Source of the DNA: Escherichia phage vB_EcoP-UTI89UKE2
Reading direction: 5' to 3' (one strand)
Sequence record: MZ234049.1
DNA: 44,293 nucleotides
A program made the translations under genes and the position numbers. This document shows, piece by piece, positions 3,831 through 41,100 of the stretch (position 1 is its first letter; every line of letters begins with the position of its first letter). The notes beneath the pieces were generated by a model. That model made no database searches and was not told where the DNA came from. It saw only the letters and a list, made by a program, of their open reading frames with translations.

Positions 3831-3868
3831 TTCCTCTTATTACCACTTAGAGGAAGGGCAGACCTAGG

Positions 3869-3914
3869 TTGTCTCACATGTGAGACTTCGTATTTACCGG
3901 ACAGTATAGATAAG
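3869..3914 (+). promoter_or_regulatory. second palindrome GTCTCACATGTGAGAC abutting a second variant promoter-like sequence (TATTTACCGGACAGTATAGATAAG)
   Basis: Palindrome at 3871-3886; the promoter-like sequence differs from consensus in the core (CAGTATAGA vs CACTATAGA), so activity is uncertain. Confidence 0.4.
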
Positions 3915-3940
3915 ATTAACTCACTTTTGGAGATTTAACC

Positions 3941-4069
3941 ATGCGTAACTTTGAGAAGATGGCCCGTAAAGCTAACCGTTTTGACATGGAAGAAGGGCAG
4001 AAGAAAGGCAAGAAGCTGAATAAACCTGTTCGTGACCGTGCATCTAAACGCGCTGCGTGGGAGTTCTAA
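3941..4069 (+). CDS. small basic protein (42 aa)
   Basis: ATG at 3941, in-frame TAA at 4067-4069; sits in the short gap before the primase gene. Absent from the ORF track because it is under 60 aa. Confidence 0.4.
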   Translation: MRNFEKMARKANRFDMEEGQKKGKKLNKPVRDRASKRAAWEF

Positions 4070-4072
4070 GTT

Positions 4073-6061
4073 ATGGCTATTATTCAGAATGTACCGTGTC
4101 CTGCCTGTCAAAAGAATGGACATGATATTACTGGCAACCATCTTATGATATTTGAGGATGGCGCTGGTTACTGTAACCGTGGTCACTTCCATGATAACGG
4201 CAAGCCTTATTACCATAAGCCAGAGGGTGGCATCGAGATAACCGAATTACCTATTACTGGCAATATCAAATATACACCTTCTCAGTTTAAAGAGATGGAG
4301 AAGGAAGGGAAGATTAGCGACCCTAAGCTACGCGCCATCGCACTTGGTGGTATGCGTATGAAAGACCGTTGGGAGGTCATGAATGAGCAAGAAAGGGCAG
4401 AACAAGAAGCAGAGTGGAAACTTGATGTTGAATGGTTCCTCACGCTTAAGCGTAAGAATCTTGTTTCCCGACACATTCGCGGCGACATTTGCGCATTGTA
4501 CGATGTACGTGTCGGACACGATGAAGATGGTAGAGTCTCACGGCATTACTATCCACGCTTCGAGAAAGGTGAGCTAGTAGGCGCTAAGTGTCGCACATTA
4601 CCTAAAGACTTTAAGTTTGGTCATTTAGGTAAACTCTTTGGTATGCAAGATCTTTTCGGTATGAATACTTTGTCTCACGTGTTAGACAAGGGAAGACGAA
4701 AGGATTGCTTGCTTATTGTGGGCGGCGAACTGGATGCACTAGCAGCACAGCAAATGCTCCTTGATTCTGCCAAGGGTACTAAGTGGGAAGGCCAGCCTTA
4801 CCATGTATGGTCTGTCAATAAAGGTGAGTCTTGCCTTGAAGAGATAGTACAGAACCGTGAACACATCGCCCAATTTAAGAAGATTATATGGGGTTTTGAT
4901 GGAGATGAGGTAGGGCAGAAGCAGAATCAGCAAGCGGCTCGCCTGTTTCCTGGCAAATCCTATATCCTTGAATACCCTTCTGGTTGCAAAGATGCTAACA
5001 AGGCATTGATGGCTGGCAAGGCTAAAGAGTTTGTTGATGCTTGGTTTAATGCCAAGTCATCTGATGAAGTCTTTGGTAGCCAGATTAAATCTATCGCATC
5101 TCAAAGGGATAAGCTCAAGGCTGCACGTCCAGAGCAAGGGCTATCATGGCCTTGGCCTAAGCTGAACAAGGTAACGCTAGGTATTCGTAAGAACCAGCTT
5201 ATCATTGTAGGTGCAGGTTCTGGTGTAGGTAAGACTGAGTTCCTCCGCGAAGTGGTTAAACATCTCATTGAAGAACACGGTGAATCTGTAGGCATCATTT
5301 CTACAGAAGACCCAATGGTCAAGGTGTCCCGTGCTTTTATCGGCAAGTGGATTGATAAGCGTATTGAGTTACCGCCAACCAACGACCCGAAAGAAGACGG
5401 ATACCGTGAGGTGTTCGACTACACCGAGGAAGAAGCTAACGCTGCCATTGATTATGTAGCTGATACAGGAAAGCTATTTGTGGCTGACCTAGAAGGCGAT
5501 TATTCTATGGAGAAGGTAGAGCAAACTTGCCTAGAGTTTGAGGCTATGGGCATTTCTAATATCATCATTGATAACTTAACGGGGATTAAATTAGATGAGC
5601 GTGCTTTTGGTGGGAAGGTTGGTGCACTTGATGAATGCGTCAAACGAATTGGTACTATCAAAGACCGACATGCGGTTACGATTTTCCTTGTCTCTCACCT
5701 TACACGTCCTCCGGCAAACCGTACCCAACACGAAGAAGGTGGCGAAGTTATCCTTTCTGACTTCCGAGGCTCAGGCGCTATCGGATTCTGGGCATCTTAC
5801 GCCTTGGGGATTGAGCGTAATACAAGAGCTGAAACGCTTGATGAAAGGACTACCACGTACATCTCGTGTGTCAAAGACCGCGATCAAGGTATCTACACTG
5901 GAACCAAGGTCATGCTTAAAGGTGACATTCAGACCGGACGTTTGATGGAACCACAAGCCCGTACTAAGTCATTTGATACAGGTGAAGCAAGGCAGCAAGA
6001 GGTGCCTGATTTACCGGACACTATAGAAGAGACAAACTTTGAAGATGAACAGGAGTTTTAA
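4073..6061 (+). CDS. DNA primase/helicase (T7 gp4-like)
   Basis: N-terminal Cys4 zinc ribbon (CPACQKNGHD...YCNRGH), Walker A GAGSGVGKTEF, and a C-terminal acidic tail ending FEDEQEF as in T7 gp4. Confidence 0.93.
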   Translation: MAIIQNVPCPACQKNGHDITGNHLMIFEDGAGYCNRGHFHDNGKPYYHKPEGGIEITELPITGNIKYTPSQFKEMEKEGKISDPKLRAIALGGMRMKDRWEVMNEQERAEQEAEWKLDVEWFLTLKRKNLVSRHIRGDICALYDVRVGHDEDGRVSRHYYPRFEKGELVGAKCRTLPKDFKFGHLGKLFGMQDLFGMNTLSHVLDKGRRKDCLLIVGGELDALAAQQMLLDSAKGTKWEGQPYHVWSVNKGESCLEEIVQNREHIAQFKKIIWGFDGDEVGQKQNQQAARLFPGKSYILEYPSGCKDANKALMAGKAKEFVDAWFNAKSSDEVFGSQIKSIASQRDKLKAARPEQGLSWPWPKLNKVTLGIRKNQLIIVGAGSGVGKTEFLREVVKHLIEEHGESVGIISTEDPMVKVSRAFIGKWIDKRIELPPTNDPKEDGYREVFDYTEEEANAAIDYVADTGKLFVADLEGDYSMEKVEQTCLEFEAMGISNIIIDNLTGIKLDERAFGGKVGALDECVKRIGTIKDRHAVTIFLVSHLTRPPANRTQHEEGGEVILSDFRGSGAIGFWASYALGIERNTRAETLDERTTTYISCVKDRDQGIYTGTKVMLKGDIQTGRLMEPQARTKSFDTGEARQQEVPDLPDTIEETNFEDEQEF

Positions 6062-6222
6062 TGGAAATTATTAAACCAGTATTGAATATCGGTATTGAGA
6101 TCCTATTCATGCTTGTGATCGCAGATTATGCTGCACGATATGGATTCAAGAAAGCGGTGAAACTTATCGTTGCATCTGGTTTTCTTATGTCAATGTTCTT
6201 TATTGTAACACGCCTTATCTAG
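6061..6222 (+). CDS. small hydrophobic protein (53 aa)
   Basis: ATG overlaps the primase stop (TAATG); one predicted transmembrane helix; TAG at 6220-6222. Confidence 0.4.
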   Translation: MEIIKPVLNIGIEILFMLVIADYAARYGFKKAVKLIVASGFLMSMFFIVTRLI

Positions 6223-6233
6223 TGTATTTATCA

Positions 6234-6267
6234 GGGCTTGTCTCACATGTGAGACAGGCTCTTATTA
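6234..6267 (+). terminator. palindrome hairpin (core TGTCTCACATGTGAGACA, 6239-6256) with GC clamp and U-rich tail
   Basis: 18-bp perfect palindrome extended by GGCT/AGGC and followed by TCTTATT. Confidence 0.45.
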
Positions 6268-6294
6268 AGTACATTAAATAACTGGAGATTGATT

Positions 6295-6978
6295 ATGTAT
6301 AAATTAGTATTGAATGCAGGTGATTATGTTCGTAACATCAATGCAACCTCACGTAGATATCGTTGCCGTGGTACTGTGACTAATGTAAGTGAAAACAGCT
6401 ACTATGTAGAGTACAGTAATGGTATTAGACAGGCTTATCAAAAGGAATCAGCACATAACTACCTTGAGAAGATTGGAGAGGTAAGCAATCAATGTAAGTG
6501 CGTACACGATGAGATTTGCGATAAGTGTGCCCGCCAGATGCATAAAATGCTATTATACCCTCTTCGCTATGGTGCTGGCATTCAAACCTTATCAGAGGCA
6601 TATGGCAAAGGTAAGACTACACTTAATAAAGATCGCCGCAATGTAATCACTGGTAAGACTCAAAGTGAAATGATTAAGCAATGTGGCACTGCACTAGGTG
6701 TTACGCAGTTTAACACTCGTGCTCTTGGTAAATCCACAGGACAAGCTATGGTGAAGATTGGTGAAGCCATGATGCACCCAAATGTACCTGTGCGAATCAT
6801 GGATGTTGACCATGCAATCACAGAACACGGTACACCACGACGTGTAGCTAATAAGCATTTTGCCGACACTATAGAAGGTATTATCCGTAAGCAAGGGTTG
6901 AAAGGTCTTCACCTCTTGAATGGTGAAGAATTACTGTATCTCCCTATTGTTACTGAAGAAACCTACGTGAATATTTAA
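6295..6978 (+). CDS. hypothetical protein (227 aa) with Cys cluster CKCVHDEICDKC
   Basis: ORF with RBS GGAG at 6284-6287 and ATG at 6295. The track start at 6289 is a TTG extension. Confidence 0.7.
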   Translation: MYKLVLNAGDYVRNINATSRRYRCRGTVTNVSENSYYVEYSNGIRQAYQKESAHNYLEKIGEVSNQCKCVHDEICDKCARQMHKMLLYPLRYGAGIQTLSEAYGKGKTTLNKDRRNVITGKTQSEMIKQCGTALGVTQFNTRALGKSTGQAMVKIGEAMMHPNVPVRIMDVDHAITEHGTPRRVANKHFADTIEGIIRKQGLKGLHLLNGEELLYLPIVTEETYVNI

Positions 6979-6988
6979 GGAGTTAATC

Positions 6989-7075
6989 ATGACTAAAGTT
7001 CTAATTTATAAACAACGAGGTCTTAAGGCTTATGCTATTGTAGCACCAAATGGTGTTAAAAAAAGTAAGTTGTAA
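6989..7075 (+). CDS. small ORF (28 aa)
   Basis: AGGAG RBS then ATG at 6989; TAA at 7073-7075. Confidence 0.25.
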   Translation: MTKVLIYKQRGLKAYAIVAPNGVKKSKL

Positions 7076-7100
7076 GCCTCTTGCAATAAAAGGTGCAGGT

Positions 7101-7205
7101 ATGTCTGCTAACTTACAATTGCAACTTTTTGGCAATTTCACAGAAGCGCAATTCCGCAATAAACATGAAGTTATTGGTTCTTTTATGGTGAAACATGCAG
7201 AATAA
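7101..7205 (+). CDS. small ORF (34 aa)
   Basis: AGGTG RBS at 7091-7095, ATG at 7101, TAA at 7203-7205. Confidence 0.25.
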   Translation: MSANLQLQLFGNFTEAQFRNKHEVIGSFMVKHAE

Positions 7206-7404
7206 ACACAGCCTTAAGATGTTTGATGGTCACGAAGACCTGCAAGCACACATCACTAACCAAGCCTTCCTGTTTGCACAGTTAACTATGGCTGAAGCAA
7301 AGAAGAATAGTCTGACACGTGAGCAGGTTATCAAGGAGGCAACTTGGGAGCCACACCAAGGCAAATACATGGGCCAGAGATTAACTGTAACACGCAGTCG
7401 ATAA
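7195..7404 (+). CDS. hypothetical protein (69 aa; alternative start 7219)
   Basis: ORF ending just before a palindrome hairpin; start ambiguous. Confidence 0.45.
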   Translation: MQNKHSLKMFDGHEDLQAHITNQAFLFAQLTMAEAKKNSLTREQVIKEATWEPHQGKYMGQRLTVTRSR

Positions 7405-7410
7405 GTAAAG

Positions 7411-7440
7411 GGTTGTCTCACACATGAGACAGCCTTTCAT
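7411..7440 (+). terminator. palindrome hairpin variant TGTCTCA-CACA-TGAGACA with GC clamp and U-rich tail
   Basis: Arms TGTCTCA/TGAGACA at 7414-7431, flanked by GG/CC and followed by TTTCAT. Confidence 0.4.
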
Positions 7441-7461
7441 CATATTGATTGGAGGTGCATT

Positions 7462-7569
7462 ATGTCACGTGATTATGATTCTGATTGGGACTACTATGAC
7501 TCAATGAATCCAAAACCTGAACATTCAGATGATTATTATTGGGTGGAGGAAATGTATGAAGACTGTTGA
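7462..7569 (+). CDS. small acidic, aromatic-rich protein (35 aa)
   Basis: RBS GGAGG at 7451-7455, ATG at 7462; ends 14 nt inside the DNA polymerase gene. Confidence 0.35.
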   Translation: MSRDYDSDWDYYDSMNPKPEHSDDYYWVEEMYEDC

Positions 7570-10102
7570 TTGGAAGAAGGAGGCAGAAGGCCGTATCCTC
7601 GTGATGGATGCGGAAGCTAAAGGACTCCTTGACGCTATCCGCTATGGTCATCGTGAAGATGTGCATATCATTTGCTGCATGGACTTGCTTACTACCGAGG
7701 AGTTTCTCTTCTTTGACCCGTATGAGATGCGTGACCCTGAAGCAAGAGAACACCTGAAGGAATGGGAAGGTCATCAAGATGGTGACTTGGTTGATGGTGT
7801 TAACTTCCTGAAGCACTGTGAAGCTATTGTGTCGCAGAACTTCCTAGGGTACGACGGCCTTCTATTTGAGAAAGCATTCCCTGATATCTGGAAAGGCTTT
7901 AACTATACCGAGAGACGCGGCAAGGGCAGACTCCGCGCTGACCTGTGTCCTGTACGCGTCATGGATACGCTGGTCATGAGTCGCCTGTTAAACCCCGATA
8001 GACGCCTCCCTCCGCAAGCATACGCCAAAGGCATGGGTAACGTCGCCCCTCACTCAATTGAGGCGCACGGCATCCGTATAGGCCGTTATAAGCCGGAGAA
8101 CGAGGATTGGTCTAAGCTAACTGACCACATGGTTCACCGTGTACGGGAGGACGTGGCGATAGGCCGTGACTTGTTCCTCTGGCTCTTTAACGGGGAATGG
8201 ATGGAGCACAAACGCCGTGGCGTGAATAAACGCACTGGCCTAGGTATTGAGACAGCCTTCCACATGGAGTCCATTGTGGCGCTGGAGATGAGCCGTCAGG
8301 CCGAGCGTGGATTCCGTCTGGATATAGATAAAGCATTAGCACGATGCGAGGAATTGGACGCTAAGATTGATGAGACAGTCGCAGCGTTCCGTCCGCACAT
8401 GCCTATGCGTATCAAGTCTAAACCTTTTAAACCGGAAGAAAAGAATGAAGTATGCCAACGCGCAAATGAGTATGGAGCTAGCAACAATATACCTACTGTC
8501 CTTGACCCCTCTCACTTTCTTCACGCAGAGAGACGAGGAGATCGCAAGACAGTATGGAGTGTCACTACTAAGTCTGGTGATTGGTCGGCTAGCGTCAAGA
8601 AAGACTTTCCTCACCTTAGAGGAAACCGTAATGACACGCCAAGCATCAAGTGGATTGGCGCTTACTCGCCTGTTACTTTCGAAGAGATTCCCTTGGGTAA
8701 CAGGGATACAGTTAAGCAAGTGCTCTATGATTATGGATGGAAAGGTGTTGAATTTAACGATACCGAGCAAGCGCATCTCGATGAGCATGGCGTATTACCC
8801 AAGCCTTGGAGTGGGAAGATAAATGAAAAGTCCCTTACTTTATGGCAAGAGAGAGCCGCACGTGAAGGTAAAACAGTCCCTGATTGGTGCTTGGGTATCG
8901 CTGCATGGTACATACTCGTATCCCGTCGTGGTCAGATCCTCAACCGTGGTGACGTTGAAGCCTTCGACCAGAAGGGGGTATGGCCTTCGCAAGCTGGTAT
9001 ACGAAAGTGTCGCGGCCTTGTACCTGTAGCATTTAACAAGGAGTTAGGAATCAATGCGCAGCAATACTACGAAAGGTACGGATGCTGGCCTACGTCAGAC
9101 AAGGATGACGGAGAATGGCGTGTGCCAGCTATTGCTATTAGTATTGGAACTTCTACGTTCCGTATGCGTCATCGTAACGTGGTTAATATTCCTGCCCGTG
9201 GTTTGTATCCTTTACGTGATTTATTCATAGCCGGTAAAGGTAAGCTAATCCTTGGTTGTGATGGTGCTGGTCTTGAACTACGTGTACTGTCTCACTTCAT
9301 GAATGACCCTGAATATCAAGATATTGTACTGCATGGTGACATTCACACCCATAATCAAATGAAGGCTGGTCTTCCTAAGCGTGACATGGCGAAGACATTT
9401 ATATATGCCTTCCTATATGGATCTGGTATAGCTAACCTTGCAGCAGTATGTGGTGTTACTGAGGAAGAAATGGAGGAAGTTGTGGCAAGATTTGAGGTTG
9501 AACTACCATCTCTTGCACGCCTTCGTGAGAATGTTATCGCACAAGGTAACAAGTTTGGCTACCTACAAGCACCTGATGGTCATTGGGGTCGCATCCGTAT
9601 GTCTGGTGGTGAACTTAAAGAGCACACTATGCTTAACGTACTACTCCAGATGACTGGTTCTCTGTGTATGAAATACGCATTGGTCAGAGCGTTTGCAGTG
9701 ATGCGCAAGGAAGGTGTGGCCTTAGATAGCATGGGAAACCCTTGCGGTATAGCTAACGTGCACGATGAAATCCAGATGGAAGTCCCTGAAGATGAGGTCT
9801 TGTATCTCAACTATGACTTGCCTTTCACCTTAGAAGGGTTCGAAACAGAGAAGGCTGCTGTGAAAGCAGTGTTCGATGCAGAGGAGAAACGTGTTCATGT
9901 GGATTCTGAAGGACGTATGTGGTCTGCTGCAAATCTCGTTAGCGTTGATGCTGATGCTGGTGTACTTCATTGCCAGCGTCGTTATCACCGTGCAGGGCAT
10001 ATCATTGCCGATGCAATGACTTGGGCTGGTCATTATTTGAAGATGCGTTGTCCGATGGCAGGTGAGTATAAGATTGGTGCAAGCTGGAAGGAAACACACT
10101 GA
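7556..10102 (+). CDS. DNA polymerase (family A, T7 gp5-like, with 3'-5' exonuclease domain)
   Basis: Motifs VMDAEAKGL (exo), GCDGAGLELRVLSHF (motif A), KTFIYAFLYGSG (motif B) and NVHDEIQMEV (motif C). RBS GGAGG at 7546-7550. The track start at 7529 is a non-ATG extension. Confidence 0.93.
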   Translation: MKTVDWKKEAEGRILVMDAEAKGLLDAIRYGHREDVHIICCMDLLTTEEFLFFDPYEMRDPEAREHLKEWEGHQDGDLVDGVNFLKHCEAIVSQNFLGYDGLLFEKAFPDIWKGFNYTERRGKGRLRADLCPVRVMDTLVMSRLLNPDRRLPPQAYAKGMGNVAPHSIEAHGIRIGRYKPENEDWSKLTDHMVHRVREDVAIGRDLFLWLFNGEWMEHKRRGVNKRTGLGIETAFHMESIVALEMSRQAERGFRLDIDKALARCEELDAKIDETVAAFRPHMPMRIKSKPFKPEEKNEVCQRANEYGASNNIPTVLDPSHFLHAERRGDRKTVWSVTTKSGDWSASVKKDFPHLRGNRNDTPSIKWIGAYSPVTFEEIPLGNRDTVKQVLYDYGWKGVEFNDTEQAHLDEHGVLPKPWSGKINEKSLTLWQERAAREGKTVPDWCLGIAAWYILVSRRGQILNRGDVEAFDQKGVWPSQAGIRKCRGLVPVAFNKELGINAQQYYERYGCWPTSDKDDGEWRVPAIAISIGTSTFRMRHRNVVNIPARGLYPLRDLFIAGKGKLILGCDGAGLELRVLSHFMNDPEYQDIVLHGDIHTHNQMKAGLPKRDMAKTFIYAFLYGSGIANLAAVCGVTEEEMEEVVARFEVELPSLARLRENVIAQGNKFGYLQAPDGHWGRIRMSGGELKEHTMLNVLLQMTGSLCMKYALVRAFAVMRKEGVALDSMGNPCGIANVHDEIQMEVPEDEVLYLNYDLPFTLEGFETEKAAVKAVFDAEEKRVHVDSEGRMWSAANLVSVDADAGVLHCQRRYHRAGHIIADAMTWAGHYLKMRCPMAGEYKIGASWKETH

Positions 10103-10218
10103 TGGACAGGTTTGATGTTGTTTGCCTATTCTCTATCTTCTTTCTTATATTCCTTATGCTTGCTTGCTATGGAAGTATGCGATTAGATATACCTGATGAA
10201 GAGGAGGGTTACGATTGA
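10102..10218 (+). CDS. small hydrophobic peptide (38 aa) ending EEEGYD
   Basis: ATG overlaps the DNAP stop (TGATG); one hydrophobic segment. Confidence 0.3.
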   Translation: MDRFDVVCLFSIFFLIFLMLACYGSMRLDIPDEEEGYD

Positions 10219-10316
10219 TGCAAACTGCTTTTATCATTCTTGGGATCATATTATTTATGGTAGTATTCTGGGCTTTCTCTGGCATTGACCCAGATTGTGA
10301 TGGTAACTACGATTGA
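10218..10316 (+). CDS. small hydrophobic peptide (32 aa) ending DCDGNYD
   Basis: ATG overlaps the preceding stop; same architecture as the previous peptide. Confidence 0.3.
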   Translation: MQTAFIILGIILFMVVFWAFSGIDPDCDGNYD

Positions 10317-10384
10317 GTTATACTCAAGGTCACTTACGAGTGGCCTTTATGAATAACTTATTCCTACTTATTTTGTCTAACATG

Positions 10385-10406
10385 ATTTACTGGACACTAT
10401 AGAAGG
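10385..10406 (+). promoter_or_regulatory. phage RNAP promoter (ATTTACTGGACACTATAGAAGG)
   Basis: Exact match to the consensus recurring in this genome; SP6-type core CACTATAGAAG. Confidence 0.8.
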
Positions 10407-10460
10407 AAAGCCTAGGTAATCTAGGTTTATAAGGTAGTATAGGTAATTAAGTAAATATAG
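10405..10460. repeat. phased (T)AGGT repeat array downstream of a promoter
   Basis: TAGGT/AAGGT/TAGGA motifs at about 9-bp spacing (CCTAGGTAATCTAGGTTTATAAGGTAGTATAGGTAA...). Confidence 0.6.
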
Positions 10461-15628: not shown

Positions 15629-16099
15629 ATGTCAAAGATTTATATTGGCGAATACGTCGTACGCCGTGCAGCTTACCGAGATGCCTTCTGGAATAAACTG
15701 TGTGAAAGCCTAGGCAAGAAACCAGATGGGGTATTCAAAGTATCCCGTGCAGAACCTAATTATAACTCTATTATGTTAGAAGGTGTTGAGAAGCGCGAAT
15801 GGTATGCACCTTACTTCAAGGTTGTTGACTCATTGCAAGATGAAGACCCTAGCACGTTGGACAACAATATGGTTACTAAGCCTAAGCACTATGAGTTCTT
15901 CGATGGGGTAGAGGCAATCACTATCATTGCTCGTAGTATGACCGAGAAGCAATTTGCTGGATATTGCATGGGTAATGCTTTGAAGTATCGTCTGCGTGCA
16001 GGGAAGAAATTCAACACGGAAGAAGATCTGAAGAAAGCAGACTACTACAAAGAGCTATTCCAGAAGCATCGTCACGAATGTATTGATGAGGATATTTAA
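15629..16099 (+). CDS. DUF3310-like phage protein (157 aa)
   Basis: KPKHYEF ... GVEAI ... FAGYCMGNALKYRLRAGKK signature; RBS GGAGG at 15616-15620. Confidence 0.65.
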   Translation: MSKIYIGEYVVRRAAYRDAFWNKLCESLGKKPDGVFKVSRAEPNYNSIMLEGVEKREWYAPYFKVVDSLQDEDPSTLDNNMVTKPKHYEFFDGVEAITIIARSMTEKQFAGYCMGNALKYRLRAGKKFNTEEDLKKADYYKELFQKHRHECIDEDI

Positions 16100-35518: not shown

Positions 35519-35538
35519 TTACTGGACACTATAGAAGG
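35517..35538 (+). promoter_or_regulatory. phage RNAP promoter (AATTACTGGACACTATAGAAGG)
   Basis: Consensus; starts immediately after the terminase stop. Confidence 0.8.
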
Positions 35539-35544
35539 AAGGCC

Positions 35545-35630
35545 CGGATAATAAGATAAATAATAGGTAATATATAGGTTAACCTAGGTTATATAGGTAT
35601 GCATTAGTATGGGTGTACTCCTGTACACCC
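35545..35630. repeat. phased TAGGT repeat array (4 copies, 9-11 bp spacing) followed by leader hairpin GGGTGTAC-TCCT-GTACACCC
   Basis: AATAGGTAATATATAGGTTAACCTAGGTTATATAGGTATG, then a perfect 8-bp stem at 35611-35630. Confidence 0.6.
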
Positions 35631-35677
35631 CCCTATTCCTTACTTCCTTACTATATTTACATAATAGGAGAGAGACA

Positions 35678-35953
35678 ATGGCTAATGATTATAGTAGTCA
35701 ACCATTAACAGGTAAGTCTAAGAGAAAGCAGGTACAACCTGTAAGTGAAGCACTAATGCTTCCGGTAATCTCGAAAGAGGAAGCTAGTAAGAAAAGCAAT
35801 GTTATTAATGATGCCACCAAATCAGGTAAACAGAAAGGGGCCATGGTATGCCTTGAAGTGGATGGTGCATTGAAGATTGCTATCGCTGTTGATGGCAAAG
35901 AAGATTCAGAGTGGAAGTTAGTGACAGGGGAACCCACTATTACCCCAGTTTAA
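35678..35953 (+). CDS. hypothetical protein (91 aa), paralog 1 of a tandem family
   Basis: RBS AGGAGAG then ATG at 35678. Shares SGKQxGAMV ... IAVA ... W with the next two ORFs. The track start at 35609 lies in the leader hairpin. Confidence 0.6.
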   Translation: MANDYSSQPLTGKSKRKQVQPVSEALMLPVISKEEASKKSNVINDATKSGKQKGAMVCLEVDGALKIAIAVDGKEDSEWKLVTGEPTITPV

Positions 35954-35971
35954 GAGAAGGAGGAAGATTAC

Positions 35972-36259
35972 ATGGCTAAATATGGTACTACAGGTTCTGT
36001 TACGGGTCAGGCTTTTCGAGTGAAAGCAGTACAAACTATTGCAACGGCAATTCCTATGCCTGTTGTTGCTGAAGAAGACCTTAAGAAGAAAGATCATCCT
36101 ATCAACATCAAATATTTATCAGGTAAACAGAGAGGTGCAATGGTTGTTATTTCGAGAGCGGACACAACCGTGCATATTGCTGTTGCACGTGGTAGTGAGC
36201 CCACCGACGTTTGGGATGTAACTGCTATGGACTCCCTTGCTGTTACACCAGGGGAGTGA
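35972..36259 (+). CDS. hypothetical protein (95 aa), paralog 2
   Basis: RBS AAGGAGG; motif KYLSGKQRGAMVVISRA ... HIAVARGSEPTDVWDV. Confidence 0.6.
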   Translation: MAKYGTTGSVTGQAFRVKAVQTIATAIPMPVVAEEDLKKKDHPINIKYLSGKQRGAMVVISRADTTVHIAVARGSEPTDVWDVTAMDSLAVTPGE

Positions 36260-36266
36260 TATTATC

Positions 36267-36944
36267 GTGTTAGGTATTACAGGACAACGAAGTGTAAGTC
36301 ATCAAGCTAAGGTTGCCACGGAAGTGGCTCCTATCGTTGATATCTCAGATGTGTCTGACGTTAACTCTTATCTAAACCAAAAGTACCTATCAGGTAAACA
36401 GGAAGGATATACTGTTCTGACTAAGAAAGGTTCACGTTATTCATTGTATGCTGCAACAGGTTCTAAGCCAGAAGATAAGTGGTTGCCTTTAGAGCAAGCA
36501 ACCCTACCTGATTCGAGTGCATTAGAGCTAATTGACACCATCGATGTTGAAGTTGCAAGTGCAAGCGACACAGTAGAGGTTAATGTAACCAAAGAGAGGA
36601 CTGTGTGCATCCAGACGCCTATGAAGGACTTAGCAGGTGATACAGTTTACCGGCAAGAATTGACTGCCAACATTAACCTTACCATTAATGAAAACGGAAG
36701 CCCAAGCGATACGGTTAAATTAAACATATCAATTCCTAATTTGCCAGGAACATCTAGTGGGTCTTACTATACAGTTGACAATGTGCTGTGTACTTCTTTT
36801 GGAGACGACAGTCCTGTTATTGCCAATATAGATGTCGATAAGGCTACCACTAACTTGATTGCTGTTACACTTCGTAAAGAGACGGCAACAGATATTAGGC
36901 TGTCTCTTGTAATTAGGTGGTCAATGCCAGTGGAGATTGTATAA
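36267..36944 (+). CDS. hypothetical protein (about 225 aa), paralog 3 with C-terminal extension; GTG start inferred
   Basis: Motif KYLSGKQEGYTVL ... YAATGSKPEDKWLPL; start codon uncertain (TTG 36237 or GTG 36267). Confidence 0.55.
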   Translation: MLGITGQRSVSHQAKVATEVAPIVDISDVSDVNSYLNQKYLSGKQEGYTVLTKKGSRYSLYAATGSKPEDKWLPLEQATLPDSSALELIDTIDVEVASASDTVEVNVTKERTVCIQTPMKDLAGDTVYRQELTANINLTINENGSPSDTVKLNISIPNLPGTSSGSYYTVDNVLCTSFGDDSPVIANIDVDKATTNLIAVTLRKETATDIRLSLVIRWSMPVEIV

Positions 36945-37288
36945 TGCTTAACAAATACTTCAAGCGTAAAGAGTTCGCTTGCCGTTGTGGGTGCGGTACA
37001 TCCACTGTTGATGCTGAATTACTGCAGGTAGTCACAGATGTGCGTGAGCACTTTGGTACTCCTGTTGTTATCACTTCTGGTCATCGCTGTGCTAAGCACA
37101 ATGCTAATGTAGGTGGAGCTAAGAACTCTATGCATCTTACTGGTAAGGCTGCTGACATTAAGGTACGAGGCATCTTACCTTCTGATGTACATAAGTACCT
37201 TACTGATAAGTACCAAGGCAAGTATGGTATTGGTAAATATACCTCCTTTACTCATATTGATGTACGTGACGGGTGTGCACGATGGTAG
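36944..37288 (+). CDS. endolysin, peptidase M15 family (zinc peptidase)
   Basis: FACRCGCG ... SGHRCAKHNANVGGAKNSMHLTGKAADI ... HIDVRDG; ATG overlaps the upstream stop. Confidence 0.8.
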   Translation: MLNKYFKRKEFACRCGCGTSTVDAELLQVVTDVREHFGTPVVITSGHRCAKHNANVGGAKNSMHLTGKAADIKVRGILPSDVHKYLTDKYQGKYGIGKYTSFTHIDVRDGCARW

Positions 37289-37396
37289 GTTGTGTTGCAT
37301 GGTGTGAACGCATGGTTGCTAAGGCTTCAGAGGAAGGCAACTATGAAGATTGGCAGAACTACTCAACTTTATTAGCTCAATGGAAAGGGAGATGCA

Positions 37397-37546
37397 ATGA
37401 AAAAGCTGTTCAAATCTAAGAAGGTTGTAGGTGCACTAGTTGCATTGGCAATTGCTCTTGTTTCTGTAGGTCTTGGTGTAGACCTTGGCTCTGGCACGGA
37501 ATCCTCTGTGACAGATGTGGTATGCCAAGTAATCACCTGTGAATAA
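37397..37546 (+). CDS. small membrane protein (49 aa), possible lysis-associated protein
   Basis: N-terminal MKKLFKSKK followed by a hydrophobic helix; lies between endolysin and spanins. Confidence 0.35.
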   Translation: MKKLFKSKKVVGALVALAIALVSVGLGVDLGSGTESSVTDVVCQVITCE

Positions 37547-37760
37547 GGTGCTTGAGGTGGTGGCAGGTCTTATTGGCCTGCTGCTTGCCGCTAAGAAGAA
37601 GAAGGAAGAGAAGGAGGTACAAAGTGAGGCGAATCATGCTAGCGACAATCCTGCTGATTGGTTCGCTGATCACTTCAGGGTGTCAGACGGCGTTACCAGA
37701 GAATCCAAAGGTGAAACCTCTGAAGCCGACGCTTACGGCAGTCTACGAGGTGGACGATAG
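37539..37760 (+). CDS. putative i-spanin (Rz-like; start codon ambiguous, GTG candidates at 37539-37560)
   Basis: N-terminal TM segment VLEVVAGLIGLLLAA followed by a charged periplasmic region; overlaps the o-spanin gene. Confidence 0.45.
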   Translation: MNKVLEVVAGLIGLLLAAKKKKEEKEVQSEANHASDNPADWFADHFRVSDGVTRESKGETSEADAYGSLRGGR

Positions 37761-37833
37761 AGTCTGCTTCAGTAAACCTGACGCTACAAAATTGGGTCTG
37801 TACATTCTCTCGCTAGAACGCGGATATAATTAA
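37636..37833 (+). CDS. putative o-spanin lipoprotein (Rz1-like)
   Basis: Signal plus lipobox-like LITSGC, then a Pro-rich mature part with a second Cys; gene starts inside the i-spanin gene in another frame and extends past it. Confidence 0.55.
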   Translation: MLATILLIGSLITSGCQTALPENPKVKPLKPTLTAVYEVDDRVCFSKPDATKLGLYILSLERGYN

Positions 37834-37862
37834 TACATAGTTTTATGTATCAGTGTCTTACG

Positions 37863-37885
37863 ATTTACTGGACACTATAGAAGAG
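37863..37885 (+). promoter_or_regulatory. phage RNAP promoter (ATTTACTGGACACTATAGAAGAG) for the tailspike module
   Basis: Exact consensus. Confidence 0.8.
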
Positions 37886-37964
37886 ATGAGATAGTGCCGT
37901 TCTTTTGAGCGGCCTATTACTAGCCAATCTTCATAGGGAGGATTGGGAAGTAATAGGAGAGTAT

Positions 37965-38300
37965 ATGGCTAAGTTAACTAAACCCAAGACAACGGGCTTA
38001 CTACATAGAGATACTGTACTAGCTAACTTATTAGATAATTTACTATCTAAAAGGCGTGTTACATTTGAAGGTGTAGCTCCAAGTGAAGATACTAAAATTG
38101 AGATAGAAGTACCTGTGACAGGAGACTTAGATTCTTCGTGGGCATCAATTGTATCATTAAGTACACCTGCACTTTGTACAGCTTGGATCACTAAACTGTC
38201 AGATACTACTTTAGAGATTCATGTATTTCATACAGCACAAGTAGAAATAGACATAGAGGTAGATGTTTACGTTCTAGGTAAGCACACTGTCAGTGCGTAA
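37965..38300 (+). CDS. hypothetical protein (111 aa) preceding the tailspike gene
   Basis: RBS GGAG then ATG at 37965. A 111-aa ORF at this position is recalled for K1E-type phages, where K1-5 carries a second tailspike instead. Confidence 0.6.
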   Translation: MAKLTKPKTTGLLHRDTVLANLLDNLLSKRRVTFEGVAPSEDTKIEIEVPVTGDLDSSWASIVSLSTPALCTAWITKLSDTTLEIHVFHTAQVEIDIEVDVYVLGKHTVSA

Positions 38301-38366
38301 GCACTGCTTTTCGCGCAACTTTTCTTAAAGGTTATCATGATGGTAGCCTTTCAGAAAGGAGGTTAC

Positions 38367-40802
38367 ATGATTCAAAGACTAGGTTCTTCATTAGTTAAAT
38401 TCAAGAGTAAAATAGCAGGTGCAATCTGGCGTAACTTGGATGACAAGCTCACCGAGGTTGTATCGCTTAAAGATTTTGGAGCCAAAGGTGATGGTAAGAC
38501 AAACGACCAAGATGCAGTAAATGCAGCGATGGCTTCAGGTAAGAGAATTGACGGTGCTGGTGCTACTTACAAAGTATCATCTTTACCTGATATGGAGCGA
38601 TTCTATAACACCCGCTTCGTATGGGAACGTTTAGCAGGTCAACCTCTTTACTATGTGAGTAAAGGTTTTATCAATGGTGAACTCTATAAAATCACGGACA
38701 ACCCTTATTACAATGCTTGGCCTCAAGACAAGGCGTTTGTATATGAGAATGTGATATATGCACCCTACATGGGTAGCGACCGTCATGGTGTTAGTCGTCT
38801 GCATGTATCATGGGTTAAGTCTGGTGACGATGGTCAAACATGGTCTACTCCAGAGTGGCTAACTGATCTGCATCCAGATTACCCTACAGTGAACTATCAT
38901 TGTATGAGTATGGGTGTATGTCGCAACCGTCTGTTTGCCATGATTGAAACACGTACTTTAGCCAAGAACGCACTAACCAATTGTGCATTGTGGGATCGCC
39001 CTATGTCTCGTAGTCTGCATCTTACTGGTGGTATCACTAAGGCTGCAAATCAGCGTTATGCAACAATCCATGTACCTGATCACGGATTATTCGTGGGCGA
39101 TTTTGTTAGCTTCTCTAATTCTGCGGTAACAGGTGTAACTGGTGATATGAAAGTTGCAACAGTTATAGATAAGGACAACTTCACGGTTCTTACAGCCAAT
39201 CAGCAGACCTCTGATTTGAACAATGCTGGAAAGAATTGGCACATGGGTACTTCCTTCCATAAGTCTCCATGGCGTAAGACAGATCTTGGCCTGATACCTC
39301 GTGTTACTGAAGTTCATAGCTTTGCTACTATTGATAACAATGGCTTTGTTATGGGTTATCACCAAGGCGACGTAGCTCCACGCGAAGTTGGTCTTTTCTA
39401 CTTCCCTGATGCTTTTAACAATCCATCTAATTATGTTCGTCGTCAGATACCATCTGAGTACGAACCGGGTGCTGCAGAGCCATGCATCAAGTACTATGAC
39501 GGTGTATTATACCTTATCACTCGTGGTACTCGTGGCGACCGACTAGGAAGCTCTTTGCATCGTAGTAGAGATATAGGTCAGACTTGGGAGTCACTGAGAT
39601 TTCCACATAATGTTCATCATACTACCTTACCTTTTGCTAAAGTAGGAGATGACCTTATTATGTTTGGTTCAGAACGTGCAGAAAATGAATGGGAAGCAGG
39701 TGCACCAGATGATCGTTACAAGGCATCTTATCCTCGTACCTTCTATGCACGATTGAATGTAAACAATTGGAATGCAGATGATATTGAATGGGTTAACATC
39801 ACAGACCAAATCTATCAAGGTGACATTGTGAACTCTAGTGTAGGTGTAGGTTCTGTTGTAGTTAAAGACAGCTACATTTACTATATCTTTGGTGGTGAAA
39901 ACCATTTCAACCCAATGACTTATGGTGACAACAAAGATAAAGACCCATTTAAAGGTAATGGACACCCTACTGATATATACTGCTATAAGATGCAGATTGC
40001 AAATGACAGTCGTGTATCTCGTAAGTTTACATATGGTGCAACTCCTGGTCAGGCTATACCTACTTTCATGGGTACTGATGGTATTCGCACTATTCCTGCT
40101 CCACTTCACTTATCAGGAGAGGTAGTTGCCGCAGATATGACTGTCGAACACCTTACCTTGAAGGCAAGTACAAGTGCTAATATTCGCTCAGAGATGCTGA
40201 TGGAGGGTGAATATGGGTTCATTGGTAAGACTATACCAACGGATAACCCAACCGCCCAACGTGTTATCATCTCTGGTGGAGAGGGTACAGCAGCAGATAC
40301 CGGTGCGCAAATTACCTTACACGGAGCAGGTTCTAGCACTTCTAGACGCGCAGTATATAATGCCAATGAGCACTTGTTCCAAAGTGGAGCTATCATGCCA
40401 TACAATGATAACGTGTATCCTGCTGGTGGCCCTCGTAATAGATTCACTACTATCCATCTTACAAGTGACCCTATTATTACGTCGGATGCCACTCATAAGT
40501 ATGGATCACAAGGTATTGATGAGAGTGTACTAAAGGCATGGGGTAAGGTTAGCTTCAAGCAGTACAAGTTGATTGGTGAGATGTCTCGTGGTGTGCACCA
40601 CACTCACTTTGGTGTATTGGCACAAGACATTGTAGCTGCTTTTGCATCCGAAGGGTTAGATGCAATCGACTTCGGCATTGTCTCCTTCGAAGAAGGTCAG
40701 TTTGGTGTTAGATATAGTGAAATCTTAATCTTGGAGGCTGCTTATACTCGCTATCGTTTAGACAAGTTAGAGGAGATGTATGCCACTAATAAAATCAGTT
40801 AA
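38367..40802 (+). CDS. tailspike endo-N-acetylneuraminidase (endosialidase) with C-terminal intramolecular chaperone domain
   Basis: 811 aa from ATG 38367 (RBS AAGGAGG). Sequence recognised from memory as K1-phage endosialidase, including the C-terminal block ending YATNKIS. Confidence 0.88.
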   Translation: MIQRLGSSLVKFKSKIAGAIWRNLDDKLTEVVSLKDFGAKGDGKTNDQDAVNAAMASGKRIDGAGATYKVSSLPDMERFYNTRFVWERLAGQPLYYVSKGFINGELYKITDNPYYNAWPQDKAFVYENVIYAPYMGSDRHGVSRLHVSWVKSGDDGQTWSTPEWLTDLHPDYPTVNYHCMSMGVCRNRLFAMIETRTLAKNALTNCALWDRPMSRSLHLTGGITKAANQRYATIHVPDHGLFVGDFVSFSNSAVTGVTGDMKVATVIDKDNFTVLTANQQTSDLNNAGKNWHMGTSFHKSPWRKTDLGLIPRVTEVHSFATIDNNGFVMGYHQGDVAPREVGLFYFPDAFNNPSNYVRRQIPSEYEPGAAEPCIKYYDGVLYLITRGTRGDRLGSSLHRSRDIGQTWESLRFPHNVHHTTLPFAKVGDDLIMFGSERAENEWEAGAPDDRYKASYPRTFYARLNVNNWNADDIEWVNITDQIYQGDIVNSSVGVGSVVVKDSYIYYIFGGENHFNPMTYGDNKDKDPFKGNGHPTDIYCYKMQIANDSRVSRKFTYGATPGQAIPTFMGTDGIRTIPAPLHLSGEVVAADMTVEHLTLKASTSANIRSEMLMEGEYGFIGKTIPTDNPTAQRVIISGGEGTAADTGAQITLHGAGSSTSRRAVYNANEHLFQSGAIMPYNDNVYPAGGPRNRFTTIHLTSDPIITSDATHKYGSQGIDESVLKAWGKVSFKQYKLIGEMSRGVHHTHFGVLAQDIVAAFASEGLDAIDFGIVSFEEGQFGVRYSEILILEAAYTRYRLDKLEEMYATNKIS

Positions 40803-40929
40803 GCAATCTGCTGTACGCCAGAACACAGAAGAACTTATTCAATCAGGACGTGACCCTAAGCAGGCATATGCCATTGCCAAGGATGTACAACGTCGTGACT
40901 TGAAGAAACCTTCTGCATCTTCTGCTTAA
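40780..40929 (+). CDS. small basic ORF (49 aa) overlapping the 3' end of the tailspike gene
   Basis: ATG at 40780 in the +1 frame after GGAG; TAA at 40927-40929. Confidence 0.25.
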   Translation: MPLIKSVKQSAVRQNTEELIQSGRDPKQAYAIAKDVQRRDLKKPSASSA

Positions 40930-40939
40930 GCAGGTTAAT

Positions 40940-41100
40940 ATCTTAGTGTACACAAGGGCAGACCTAGGTTTGCTCTTAGTGCCATCAAAGGAGGGTGTAG
41001 GTATGTTATCTTTGTTGTGTATACTCAGTGATGTCCTAGGTCGTAAGAGGTACATTCTTAGTGAAGACCAAATAAGGGACGAGAAGATACGGAGGTCGCT
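40940..41100. repeat. CTTAGT(G) repeat copies to the left of the GC-rich terminal segment
   Basis: CTTAGTG at about 40942, 40975 and 41057; the 17-mer AAGGGCAGACCTAGGTT (40954-40970) also occurs at 3854-3870. Confidence 0.5.

What the first reader, a model, noticed from the sequence alone, without database searches (positions are those of the whole stretch)
3854..40970. 17-bp exact repeat AAGGGCAGACCTAGGTT in two distant intergenic regions
The same 17-mer occurs at 3854-3870, just before the second palindrome and promoter after the RNAP gene, and at 40954-40970, just after the tailspike gene near the genome end. Both copies are adjacent to putative origin or terminus regions, suggesting a shared recognition element or a footprint of recombination.
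Basis: seen in the sequence. Interest (0 to 1): 0.38.

Follow-up and report, generated by a model that had tools for sequence, protein, structure and literature searches.

The report
Phage hairpin arm repeated once elsewhere
The repeated 17-mer is real, but one copy is half of a conserved RNA hairpin that closes the tailspike gene module of this K1E/SP6-like phage, and the other is a hairpin-less, dispensable partial copy behind the RNA polymerase gene, so it is an ordinary piece of phage intergenic "vocabulary" rather than a new recognition system.

Summary
The window is Escherichia phage vB_EcoP-UTI89UKE3 (Vectrevirus, K1E/K1-5/SP6-like), deposited circularly permuted. AAGGGCAGACCTAGGTT occurs exactly twice (3854-3870, 40954-40970); the flanks share no similarity.

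Copy 2 is the 5' arm, tetraloop and first two bases of the 3' arm of a stem-loop (40951-40981). It lies 21 nt after the gp48 stop and 178 bp left of the 267-bp direct terminal repeat (41148-41414). In 12 sequence variants from Vectrevirus, SP6-like and Proteus phages, all 120 stem positions pair and 7 of 10 pairs vary. A quarter are G.U wobbles that work only on the transcribed strand. The hairpin borders a slot of variable small ORFs and has moved, with gp48, into an unrelated Schitoviridae phage.

Copy 1 lies between the two tandem phage promoters after the RNA polymerase gene. It has no 3' arm and scores 7.8 bits against the hairpin model, versus 53.8 for copy 2. It varies as much as its flanks, changes independently of copy 2, and is deleted or absent in several relatives.

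Best reading: a conserved mRNA hairpin at a module junction, plus an old partial paralogue. A shared recognition site is not excluded but is less likely. Interest is low to moderate.

The parts
3854..3870 (+). Copy 1 of the 17-mer AAGGGCAGACCTAGGTT. It has no complementary 3' arm, and its first 4 nt form the end of the 3' arm of an upstream hairpin.
   Evidence: Exact match. Fold of 3725-3895. Only 7.8 bits, E about 8, against the copy-2 hairpin model. Conserved with 0-3 changes in Vectrevirus, 1-nt insertion in SP6, deleted in L128-L130.
3829..3857 (+). Predicted hairpin CCUUCCUCU / AGAGGAAGG in the transcript from promoter 1; it overlaps the first 4 nt of copy 1.
   Evidence: MFE and centroid fold of 3725-3895. 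A shorter equivalent pairing (UCCUUC/GAAGGG) can be read by eye in the SP6 sequence; it was not folded.
3871..3886 (+). Palindrome GTCTCACATGTGAGAC (second of two after the RNAP gene), directly abutting copy 1.
   Evidence: 8 copies in the window against 0.25 expected. Replaced by GTCCAACGTGTTGGAC at both sites in SP6-like relatives.
3892..3914 (+). Phage-RNAP promoter 2 (ATTTACCGGACAGTATAGATAAG) upstream of gene 8 and the primase-helicase gene.
   Evidence: Promoter repeat family.
3708..3730 (+). Phage-RNAP promoter 1, preceded by palindrome 1 (3690-3705). Copy 1 lies in the spacer between promoters 1 and 2.
   Evidence: architecture conserved across genera.
40954..40970 (+). Copy 2 of the 17-mer: the 5' arm (AAGGGCAGAC), loop (CUAG) and first bases of the 3' arm of a hairpin.
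40951..40981 (+). Conserved stem-loop CAC-AAGGGCAGAC-CUAG-GUUUGCUCUU-a-GUG (about -16 kcal/mol), 21 nt after the gp48 stop and 8 nt before the Shine-Dalgarno sequence of ORF 41003-41110.
   Evidence: Folds. 12 variants, 120/120 cells paired, 7/10 pairs vary, 2 pairs with changes on both sides. Covariance model 53.8 bits on the + strand against 17.2 on the - strand. + strand mean -16.0 against - strand -9.8 kcal/mol.
40942..40948 (+). CTTAGTG unit flanking the hairpin on the left. A second unit (40975-40981) forms the end of the hairpin's 3' arm.
   Evidence: 18 CTTAGTG on the + strand (3 expected), 12 of them within 40942-41906.
41243..41283 (+). Third, degenerate paralogue (AGGGCTTGCCGAGGTCTGCTCTTAGTG...) inside the terminal repeat.
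   Evidence: (family D12). A homologous copy occupies the corresponding position just after the terminal-repeat start motif in contig L047.
41148..41414 (.). Direct terminal repeat of the physical genome (267 bp, present once in this permuted record).
   Evidence: K1E and KAW1A4500 records start at window 41148. The K1-5 record ends at window 41414. Their own repeats are 288, 267 and 234 bp. Mt1B1_P10 has an annotated 267-bp repeat.
40780..40929 (+). gp48 (49 aa, PHROG 2423, unknown function), the gene that the hairpin follows and travels with.

Best explanation
The 17-mer is not a free-standing element. At 40954 it is the 5' arm plus loop of a 10-13-bp stem-loop (40951-40981). This stem-loop forms in the rightward (+) late transcript just after the tailspike-gp48 genes. 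It most likely acts at the RNA level as a 3'-end protecting, processing or pausing hairpin (inferred; no RNA ends were mapped). It also marks the junction between the conserved late module and a slot of interchangeable small ORFs next to the terminal repeat, where recombination repeatedly joins different modules. At 3854 the same 17 bases are an old partial paralogue, with 5' arm and loop only. This copy sits in the spacer between the two promoters after the RNAP gene and is built from words (AAGG.., CCTAGGTT) that are generally enriched in this phage's intergenic DNA. It has a different local fold, is not specially conserved and is dispensable in relatives. The exact identity of the two copies in this genome is therefore inherited similarity, kept by the hairpin constraint at copy 2 and by slow drift at copy 1. 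It is not evidence that the two sites share a function.
For: Shown:
- The hairpin exists and is conserved with compensation. All 120 cells pair in 12 distinct variants; pairs include C-G<->U-A and A-U<->U-G; 0 of 500 shuffles reach the observed pairing or covariation score; slid controls give 27-60% pairing.
- 30 of 120 cells are G.U wobbles, and these would be A.C mismatches on the other strand. All 12 variants fold better on the + strand, mean -16.0 against -9.8 kcal/mol. The model scores 53.8 bits on + and 17.2 on -.
- The loop varies (CUAG, UUAG, UUAU, UUGG), which breaks the DNA palindrome ACCTAGGT.
- A 62-nt insertion in the loop of ACG-C91-type phages preserves and extends the stem.
- At least five different small ORFs follow the hairpin in different phages.
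- The gp48-plus-hairpin block is also found between two tailspike genes of the Gamaleyavirus ShWW44.
- Copy 1 scores only 7.8 bits (E about 8) against the hairpin model, and part of it pairs with upstream CU-rich sequence instead.
- Within 14 distinct Vectrevirus sequences copy 1 varies at 3 positions, like its flanks, while the adjacent palindrome is invariant and the promoter varies at a single position.
- Copy 1 is deleted in L128-L130 and absent in Pm5460 (L132) and Klebsiella phage pKV-BS375-3.1, which keep copy 2.
- The two copies change independently. K1E and K1-5 have CCTAGG at copy 1 and CTTAGG at copy 2. Mt1B1_P10 has CCTAAGCT and CCTAGGTT. SP6 has AAGGGCAGACaCTAGGTT and AAGGGTTGGCTTAGGTT.
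- CCTAGG, ACCTAG, CTTAGT and TAGGTT are 5-8 times enriched in intergenic DNA.
- An SP6-like genome paper reports a TransTerm-predicted terminator after the tailspike genes (PMC4837284).
Against: - The flanks of the two copies share nothing. A plain duplication would therefore have had sharp ends, or its flanks have decayed completely while the core stayed 17/17 identical, which hints at some constraint on copy 1.
- The block AGGAAGGGCAGAC(A)CTAGGTTGTCT is one of the better conserved stretches of that spacer between SP6 and this phage.
- Klebsiella relatives keep AAGGGCAGACCTAGG at the right end with a different pairing partner and carry one or two further GGCAGA-containing partial copies nearby. 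That looks like conservation of sequence rather than of structure.
- The hairpin has no U-run and is not picked up by the terminator scan or by Rfam, so its RNA function is inferred, not shown.
- Half of the 12 variants were also retrievable by a pattern that fixed AAGGG...YYCTT, which biases the basal pairs.
Confidence: 0.55

Rival explanations
1. Shared sequence-specific recognition element. A phage protein or host factor (for example small terminase, a replication or packaging factor, or a nicking enzyme) binds the core AAGGG-N5-6-YTAGGTT both in the origin-like spacer after the RNAP gene and next to the terminal repeat.
For: The 17-bp identity has sharp edges and unrelated flanks. Both copies are retained in Vectrevirus and in SP6-type Zindervirus. 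The 15-mer AAGGGCAGACCTAGG is kept in Klebsiella relatives whose hairpin partner differs, and extra GGCAGAC-YTAGG partial copies lie just left of their terminal repeat. The copy-2 element is embedded in an array of CTTAG(TG) units flanking the terminal repeat; from general knowledge this resembles repeated terminase-binding motifs at other phages' pac/cos sites. The positions match the T7 primary-origin and right-end regions (analogy).
Against: There are no correlated changes between the two copies. Copy 1 is lost in L128-L130, Pm5460 and the Klebsiella phage, all apparently complete 43-46-kb genomes. Copy 1 is no more conserved than its flanks within the genus. At copy 2 the middle of the motif changes freely as long as pairing is kept (CAGAC -> CUGGC, UUGGC), and the strict + strand G.U pattern points to RNA, not duplex DNA. 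The window holds only two or three copies.
Confidence: 0.2
2. Both copies are leader remnants of decayed phage promoter-leader modules of the P10385 type (TATAG-AAGGAAAG-CCTAGGT...). Copy 1 would be a dead third promoter in the post-RNAP cluster. Copy 2 would be a dead or converted right-end promoter (the T7 phiOR position) whose leader hairpin was kept.
For: Gapped similarity to promoter 10385 plus its leader: copy 1 scores 26 (z 3.8, 8/2000 shuffles), copy 2 scores 25 (z 2.6), and the L131 variant of copy 1 matches ATAG(G)AAGGAAAG(T)CCTAGG with score 28 (1/2000). Several promoters are followed by AAGG-initiated leader hairpins and then SD plus ATG, the same layout as copy 2 followed by ORF 41003. 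The model of the copy-2 hairpin weakly hits the leader hairpin of promoter 15563 (14.5 bits, E 0.05). CTTAGTGTACAC resembles the SP6-type -16..-5 region TTTAGGTGACAC (read from the sequence).
Against: The scores sit only at about the 96th-99th percentile of random coding 61-mers, and five comparisons were tried. The TATAG melting region is missing in every relative examined, so no intermediate supports the descent. The similarity may simply reflect the shared intergenic vocabulary.
Confidence: 0.15
3. The copy-2 near-palindrome works as single-stranded DNA. It would be a hairpin used when concatemers are processed and the terminal repeat is duplicated, as proposed for T7 hairpin ends. Copy 1 would be incidental.
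For: The element lies 178 bp left of the terminal repeat, and only about 14 nt from the conserved pre-repeat block in Proteus phage Pm5460. That block (41101-41147) and the hairpin are both conserved across genera. The T7 hairpin-intermediate model is recalled from memory (Chung, Nardone and Hinkle 1990) and was not checked here.
Against: The distance to the repeat varies from about 70 to more than 300 nt because ORFs are inserted between them. The hairpin travels with gp48 and tailspike genes into a Schitoviridae phage, where it is internal to the genome. G.T mismatches weaken a DNA hairpin.
Confidence: 0.06
4. Pure coincidence: two unrelated intergenic sequences happen to share 17 bases.
For: 9% of shuffled windows contain some exact 17-mer repeat. 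The 3' half of the 17-mer is made of words that are common in intergenic DNA. The flanks are unrelated.
Against: Both copies lie in the 3.6 kb of intergenic DNA, where the expectation for any shared 17-mer is about 4e-4 by arithmetic. Both are conserved at orthologous positions in two genera. A third paralogue exists.
Confidence: 0.04

Closest known systems
Intercistronic and 3'-terminal mRNA stem-loops of T7-group phages (terminator T-phi, 3' hairpins left by RNase III cuts)
   Same: A stable hairpin immediately after a late gene, on the transcribed strand, maintained by compensatory and G.U changes, and followed by the next gene's ribosome-binding site.
   Different: There is no U-run (so not a class I terminator). 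The stem of 10-13 bp is too short for a canonical RNase III site. No Rfam family matches. The function has not been tested.
Short repeat arrays flanking the T7 terminal repetition (SRL/SRR, Dunn and Studier 1983; from memory)
   Same: A short unit (here CTTAG/CTTAGTG, in T7 CCTAAAG) is clustered on both sides of the direct terminal repeat. The copy-2 hairpin sits among these units, and one unit forms the end of its 3' arm.
   Different: The unit sequence differs. In Klebsiella relatives the unit is CATAGTG. The function is unknown in both systems.
Module-boundary or 'linker' sequences of mosaic phage genomes (Susskind-Botstein modular theory; boundary sequences in lambdoid phages such as HK620; from memory)
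   Same: A short conserved non-coding block lies between interchangeable modules: variable tailspikes upstream and at least five different small ORFs downstream. It is also present in an unrelated phage family.
   Different: Here the block is also a structured RNA element. Whether it promotes recombination or merely survives it is not known.
T7 primary origin region (tandem promoters phi1.1A/phi1.1B after gene 1)
   Same: Copy 1 lies between two tandem phage promoters directly downstream of the RNAP gene, in a repeat-rich spacer.
   Different: Origin function has not been shown for SP6-like phages in anything examined here. The 17-mer is absent from that spacer in several relatives.

Membership tests
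Conserved structured RNA hairpin | Base pairs maintained across relatives through compensatory or wobble changes | tested here: met
   For copy 2, 120/120 cells pair, 7/10 pairs vary and 2 pairs change on both sides; 0/500 shuffles reach the observed values. For copy 1 this is not met: there is no 3' arm and the score is 7.8 bits.
Conserved structured RNA hairpin | Strand asymmetry (G.U only on the transcribed strand) | tested here: met
   30/120 cells are G.U on the + strand. The + strand is more stable in 12/12 variants. The model scores 53.8 bits on + against 17.2 on -.
Intrinsic (class I) transcription terminator | G+C-rich stem-loop followed by a run of U | tested here: not met
   The stem is present but is followed by AGUGCC. 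The terminator-like scan does not list the site.
RNase III processing site of the T7 type | About 20 bp or more of double-stranded RNA, usually with an internal loop | tested here: not met
   The stem is 10 bp, or 13 bp with one bulge. Cleavage cannot be tested with these tools.
Dispersed recognition element (protein-binding repeat) | All copies retained and co-conserved in relatives | tested here: not met
   Copy 1 is lost in L128-L130, Pm5460 and the Klebsiella phage, while copy 2 is kept. There are no correlated substitutions.
Dispersed recognition element (protein-binding repeat) | Sequence conserved beyond what structure or neighbouring DNA explains | tested here: inconclusive
   Within the genus copy 1 varies like its flanks. 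However, the 15-mer is kept in Klebsiella relatives with a different fold, and copy 1 is well kept between SP6 and Vectrevirus.
Dispersed recognition element (protein-binding repeat) | Demonstrated binding or cleavage | not testable with these tools
   Needs EMSA, footprinting or nick mapping.
SP6/K1E-type phage promoter | Match to the 23-bp consensus including the TATAG initiation region | tested here: not met
   No promoter-family member lies at either copy. Only gapped, weak similarity with TATAG missing.
Terminal short-repeat array (T7 SRL/SRR-like) | Short unit clustered on both sides of the direct terminal repeat | tested here: met
   12 of 18 + strand CTTAGTG lie within 40942-41906. There are 10 CTTAG units in 41467-41586. 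Copy 2 is flanked by two units.
Module-boundary (linker) sequence | Conserved block with non-homologous sequence on either side in different genomes | tested here: met
   This holds for copy 2 and is not seen for copy 1.

The most novel reading that the evidence does not exclude
AAGGGCAGAC-YTAGG(TT) is a sequence-specific site, read by a phage protein or cut as a localized nick, that links the origin-like promoter cluster after the RNAP gene with the packaging end. Alternatively, together with the CTTAGTG units, it is a promoter-derived half-site that positions the phage RNA polymerase next to the terminal repeat for terminase recruitment.
Probability: 0.12. Interest if true: 0.6.

Novelty: new member of a known kind. 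Interest (0 to 1): 0.25.

Why it matters
If the reading is right, the practical value is modest. It supplies a defined, conserved 3' boundary (a hairpin plus CTTAGTG units) for the tailspike/gp48 cassette of K1E/K1-5/SP6-like phages. That boundary is useful for annotating these genomes and for choosing junctions when swapping tailspikes in phage engineering. It is also a clean example of a structured RNA element that coincides with a recombination junction and crosses phage families. It would matter more only if the minority reading (a shared protein recognition or nick site tying the origin-like region to the packaging end) proved true, because cis-acting replication and packaging signals of SP6-like phages are essentially uncharted.

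Tried and rejected
- Extension of the repeat: local alignment of 60-nt and 40-nt flanks found nothing beyond the 17-mer.
- Further copies: none at 2 mismatches or fewer. At 3 mismatches the only extra hit is the reverse reading of copy 2. GGCAGAC and related words show no further intergenic copies.
- Known RNA families: no Rfam hit anywhere in the window.
- Intrinsic terminator: not listed by the scan.
- Host or plasmid origin: no match in 5,426 E. coli genomes or in PLSDB plasmids.
- A mis-specified pattern scan of IMG/VR (one N too many) returned mostly unrelated hits and was discarded. The corrected scan also pulled in an unrelated terminator family (AAGGGGTTTCTTCGGAAGCCCCTT followed by a T-run), which was excluded.
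- Literature: searches found no description of this 17-mer or hairpin. The only related statement is that a TransTerm terminator follows the tailspike genes in SP6-like UAB_Phi78. Dobbins et al. 2004 (PMC374404) is not held.
- Consensus RNA structure for the copy-1 region: RNAalifold supports the 5' leader hairpin, the long AG/CU hairpin and the palindrome, but no pairs involving the 17-mer.
- Promoter-derived origin: only weakly supported, so it is kept as a rival, not as the main account.
- Coding potential: ORFs overlapping copy 2 (40946-41110 on +, 40843-41103 on -) are not the annotated genes, and the sequence there is non-coding in relatives.
Full report
**What the window is.** The window is 100% identical to Escherichia phage vB_EcoP-UTI89UKE3 (MZ234050.1; Autographiviridae, Molineuxvirinae, Vectrevirus), a relative of K1E, K1-5 and SP6. 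The record is circularly permuted. It starts one gene before the RNA polymerase gene (988-3615). The physical genome end lies inside the window. The K1E and KAW1A4500 records begin at window 41148 (TCTCGCCCTCGCC...), and the K1-5 record ends at window 41414. Their own terminal repeats are 288, 267 and 234 bp, and Mt1B1_P10 carries an annotated 267-bp repeat. The direct terminal repeat is therefore 41148-41414.

**The observation.**
- AAGGGCAGACCTAGGTT occurs exactly at 3854-3870 and 40954-40970 on the + strand, and nowhere else at up to 2 mismatches.
- The statistics need care. 27 of 300 dinucleotide-preserving shuffles of the window contain some exact 17-mer direct repeat, so the repeat is not significant on length alone.
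- The 40-60 nt on either side of the two copies share nothing.
- It is not chance, for three reasons. Both copies lie in the 8.2% of the window that is intergenic. All other repeats of 17 bp or more in the window belong to just three regulatory-looking families: promoters, the GTCTCACATGTGAGAC palindrome, and an early-region repeat. Both copies also recur at orthologous places in relatives. The 81 nt around copy 1 match 75 phage records, and the 81 nt around copy 2 match 89.
- A third, degenerate paralogue of copy 2 lies inside the terminal repeat at 41243-41283 (score 33 against shuffles of 18.1 +/- 2.2).

**Copy 2 is half of a conserved hairpin.**
- The + strand reads CAC-AAGGGCAGAC-CTAG-GTTTGCTCTT-A-GTG (40951-40981). 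It folds into a 10-bp stem, or 13 bp with one bulge, with a tetraloop at about -16 kcal/mol. The 17-mer is the 5' arm, the loop and the first bases of the 3' arm.
- I collected the homologous site from loci found through the terminase and RNAP genes and through pattern scans of IMG/VR, plus fetched GenBank genomes.
- Twelve distinct variants came from Vectrevirus, SP6 and other SP6-like contigs, Citrobacter phage CrRp3 and Proteus phage Pm5460. In these, all 120 stem cells form standard pairs and 7 of 10 pairs vary. One pair switches C-G to U-A and another A-U to U-G (6 of 12 sequences). No shuffle out of 500 reaches the observed pairing or covariation, and sliding the partner by one to three columns drops pairing to 27-60%.
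- A quarter of the cells are G.U wobbles, which would be A.C mismatches on the other strand. Accordingly all 12 variants fold better on the + strand (mean -16.0 against -9.8 kcal/mol). A covariance model built from them scores copy 2 at 53.8 bits on the + strand and 17.2 on the - strand.
- The loop varies (CUAG, UUAG, UUAU, UUGG). This destroys the ACCTAGGT DNA palindrome in most relatives and argues against a symmetric duplex-DNA site.
- In ACG-C91-type phages a 62-nt insertion sits in the loop yet preserves and extends the stem.
- Caveat: part of the set could also be retrieved by a pattern that fixed AAGGG...YYCTT, which biases the basal pairs. The informative changes are in the unconstrained middle.

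**Context of copy 2.**
- The hairpin starts 21 nt after the stop of gp48 (40780-40929; PHROG 2423, unknown function). It ends 8 nt before the Shine-Dalgarno sequence of a 35-codon ORF (41003-41110).
- Upstream, about 70 nt including the gp48 end are conserved. Downstream, at least five unrelated small ORFs occur in different phages, each with its own ribosome-binding site. In Pm5460 there is no ORF, and the hairpin almost abuts the strongly conserved block that precedes the terminal repeat (window 41101-41147). The hairpin is thus the left border of a variable slot.
- The same gp48-plus-hairpin block (the loop-insertion form) lies between two tailspike genes of Escherichia phage ShWW44, a Gamaleyavirus of the unrelated family Schitoviridae. 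The block therefore moves horizontally with tailspike modules.
- The hairpin is flanked by CTTAGTG units (40942, 40975). 12 of the 18 + strand CTTAGTG in the window (3 expected) lie within 40942-41906, including a dense CTTAG array at 41467-41586 just right of the terminal repeat. From my knowledge of T7, this resembles the SRL/SRR arrays that flank its terminal repetition.
- The hairpin has no U-run, is not reported by the terminator scan and matches no Rfam family. It is absent from E. coli genomes and plasmids.
- A paper on the SP6-like phage UAB_Phi78 mentions a TransTerm-predicted terminator after the tailspike genes (PMC4837284). This is probably the same element, though I did not check it.

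**Copy 1 is something else.**
- It lies in a conserved arrangement after the RNAP gene. In order: a host-type terminator; palindrome 1 plus promoter 1 (3690-3730); an invariant 5' leader hairpin CCGTCGGAGACGG (3731-3743); a long purine-rich/pyrimidine-rich inverted repeat; the 17-mer; and palindrome 2 plus promoter 2 (3871-3914).
- There is no complementary 3' arm. Against the hairpin model it scores 7.8 bits (E about 8) as a 10-nt fragment.
- In the predicted fold its first four bases end a different hairpin, CCUUCCUCU/AGAGGAAGG (3829-3857). RNAalifold places no conserved pair on the 17-mer.
- Among 14 distinct Vectrevirus sequences it varies at three positions, like the spacer around it, whereas the adjacent palindrome is invariant and the promoter varies at a single position.
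- Across genera copy 1 reads as follows:
  - SP6: AAGGGCAGACaCTAGGTT.
  - L125 and L127: AAGGGAGGACCTAGGTT and AAGGGAAGACCTAGGTT.
  - L131: AAGGAAAGTCCTAGGCT.
  - L128-L130 (three 43-45-kb SP6-like contigs): largely deleted.
  - Pm5460 and Klebsiella phage pKV-BS375-3.1: absent.
- All of these keep copy 2.
- The two copies never change together. K1E and K1-5 have CCTAGG at copy 1 and CTTAGG at copy 2. Mt1B1_P10 has CCTAAGCT and CCTAGGTT. SP6 differs at six positions.

**What it most likely is.**
- I commit to the following reading, at a confidence of 0.55. Copy 2 is a functional stem-loop of the late + strand transcript. It closes the tailspike-gp48 unit, probably protecting or defining an mRNA 3' end or pausing the polymerase (inferred). 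It also coincides with a recombination junction (shown).
- Copy 1 is an old partial paralogue, present at least since the Vectrevirus-Zindervirus ancestor. It has no shared function with copy 2 and is dispensable.
- Part of the resemblance comes from a shared intergenic vocabulary. CCTAGG, ACCTAG, CTTAGT and TAGGTT are 5-8 times enriched in intergenic DNA, and TAGGT-rich leaders follow promoters 3708, 10385 and 35517.

**Rivals.**
- *Shared recognition site (0.2).* It is favoured by the sharp edges of the identity, by the good conservation of copy 1 between SP6 and this phage, and by Klebsiella relatives that keep AAGGGCAGACCTAGG with a different pairing partner and extra partial copies near the repeat. 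It is disfavoured by the loss of copy 1 in several lineages, the lack of correlated change, and the free compensated change in the middle of copy 2.
- *Descent of both copies from promoter-leader modules of the 10385 type (0.15).* Support is only weak gapped similarity.
- *A single-stranded DNA hairpin used in concatemer processing (0.06).*
- *Pure chance (0.04).*

**Verdict.** This is a new member of a known kind (a conserved intercistronic or 3' hairpin at a module boundary, with a relic copy). It is of low to moderate interest.

Noticed in passing
window 3690, 3871, 4672, 6240, 7415, 12356, 28816, 41739 (16-mers): The palindrome GTCTCACATGTGAGAC occurs 8 times (0.25 expected). At 6231, 7406 and 28807 it is the tip of 13-bp hairpins with G.U wobbles and a U-rich tail (z -4 to -7.5). 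Two copies sit directly upstream of promoters. In SP6-like relatives both post-RNAP copies are replaced by a different palindrome, GTCCAACGTGTTGGAC, so the change is concerted and genus-specific, which may point to a dedicated binding protein or RNA signal.
   Followed up: partly
window 41414-41420: ATCTGTT occurs only once on the + strand, and it straddles the right edge of the direct terminal repeat (...GGGCTA|TCTGTTCG). From memory, this heptamer is the class II pause/termination signal of T7 RNA polymerase at the concatemer junction.
   Followed up: partly
window 41467-41586 and 40942-41906: There is a dense array of CTTAG(T/G) units with a period of about 11-13 bp just right of the terminal repeat, and scattered units left of it and inside it. 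In a Klebsiella relative the corresponding unit is CATAGTG.
   Followed up: partly
window 41101-41147: The block CACAAAGTAACCAAAGTCAAAATTTTGATATAGGCGTGTGTGAGGTG immediately left of the terminal repeat is nearly invariant across Vectrevirus, SP6-like, Proteus and Klebsiella relatives. It is a candidate cleavage or packaging signal.
   Followed up: no
L145 (PQ900156.1 ShWW44) 3354-3620; L038 (ACG-C91) about 15668-15760: A gp48 homologue plus the hairpin block is present in a Gamaleyavirus (Schitoviridae) between two tailspike genes. In this phage and in ACG-C91-type Vectrevirus the hairpin loop carries a 62-nt insertion (TGATAGCTCACAGCACACCTATGAGTGCCGCTCTGGAG...). The core of that insertion also occurs downstream of the tailspike gene in Klebsiella Molineuxvirinae.
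   Followed up: partly
window 3731-3743 and 3745-3850: An invariant hairpin CCGTCGGAGACGG lies at the 5' end of the promoter-1 transcript in all ten aligned relatives. It is followed by a long purine-rich/pyrimidine-rich inverted repeat rich in TAGGT words. Similar TAGGT-rich leaders follow promoters at 10385 and 35517.
   Followed up: partly
window 42646-42662, 43387-43403 (and families at 41890, 42780-43424): A second non-promoter exact 17-mer repeat, CACGCTCTTTAACAATA, and related 60-nt repeats spaced about 270-310 bp apart lie in the early region.
   Followed up: no
window about 7000-7200 versus MZ234050.1: The window is 44,293 nt and the GenBank record 44,294 nt. Annotated coordinates are offset by one from about position 7100 onward.
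   Followed up: no
L007, L009-L012 (IMG/VR): The exact 17-mer also occurs in unrelated viral contigs, apparently inside genes (context reads like ...ccaAAGGGCAGACCTAGGTTt...). These are probably chance or codon-driven matches in a very large database.
   Followed up: no
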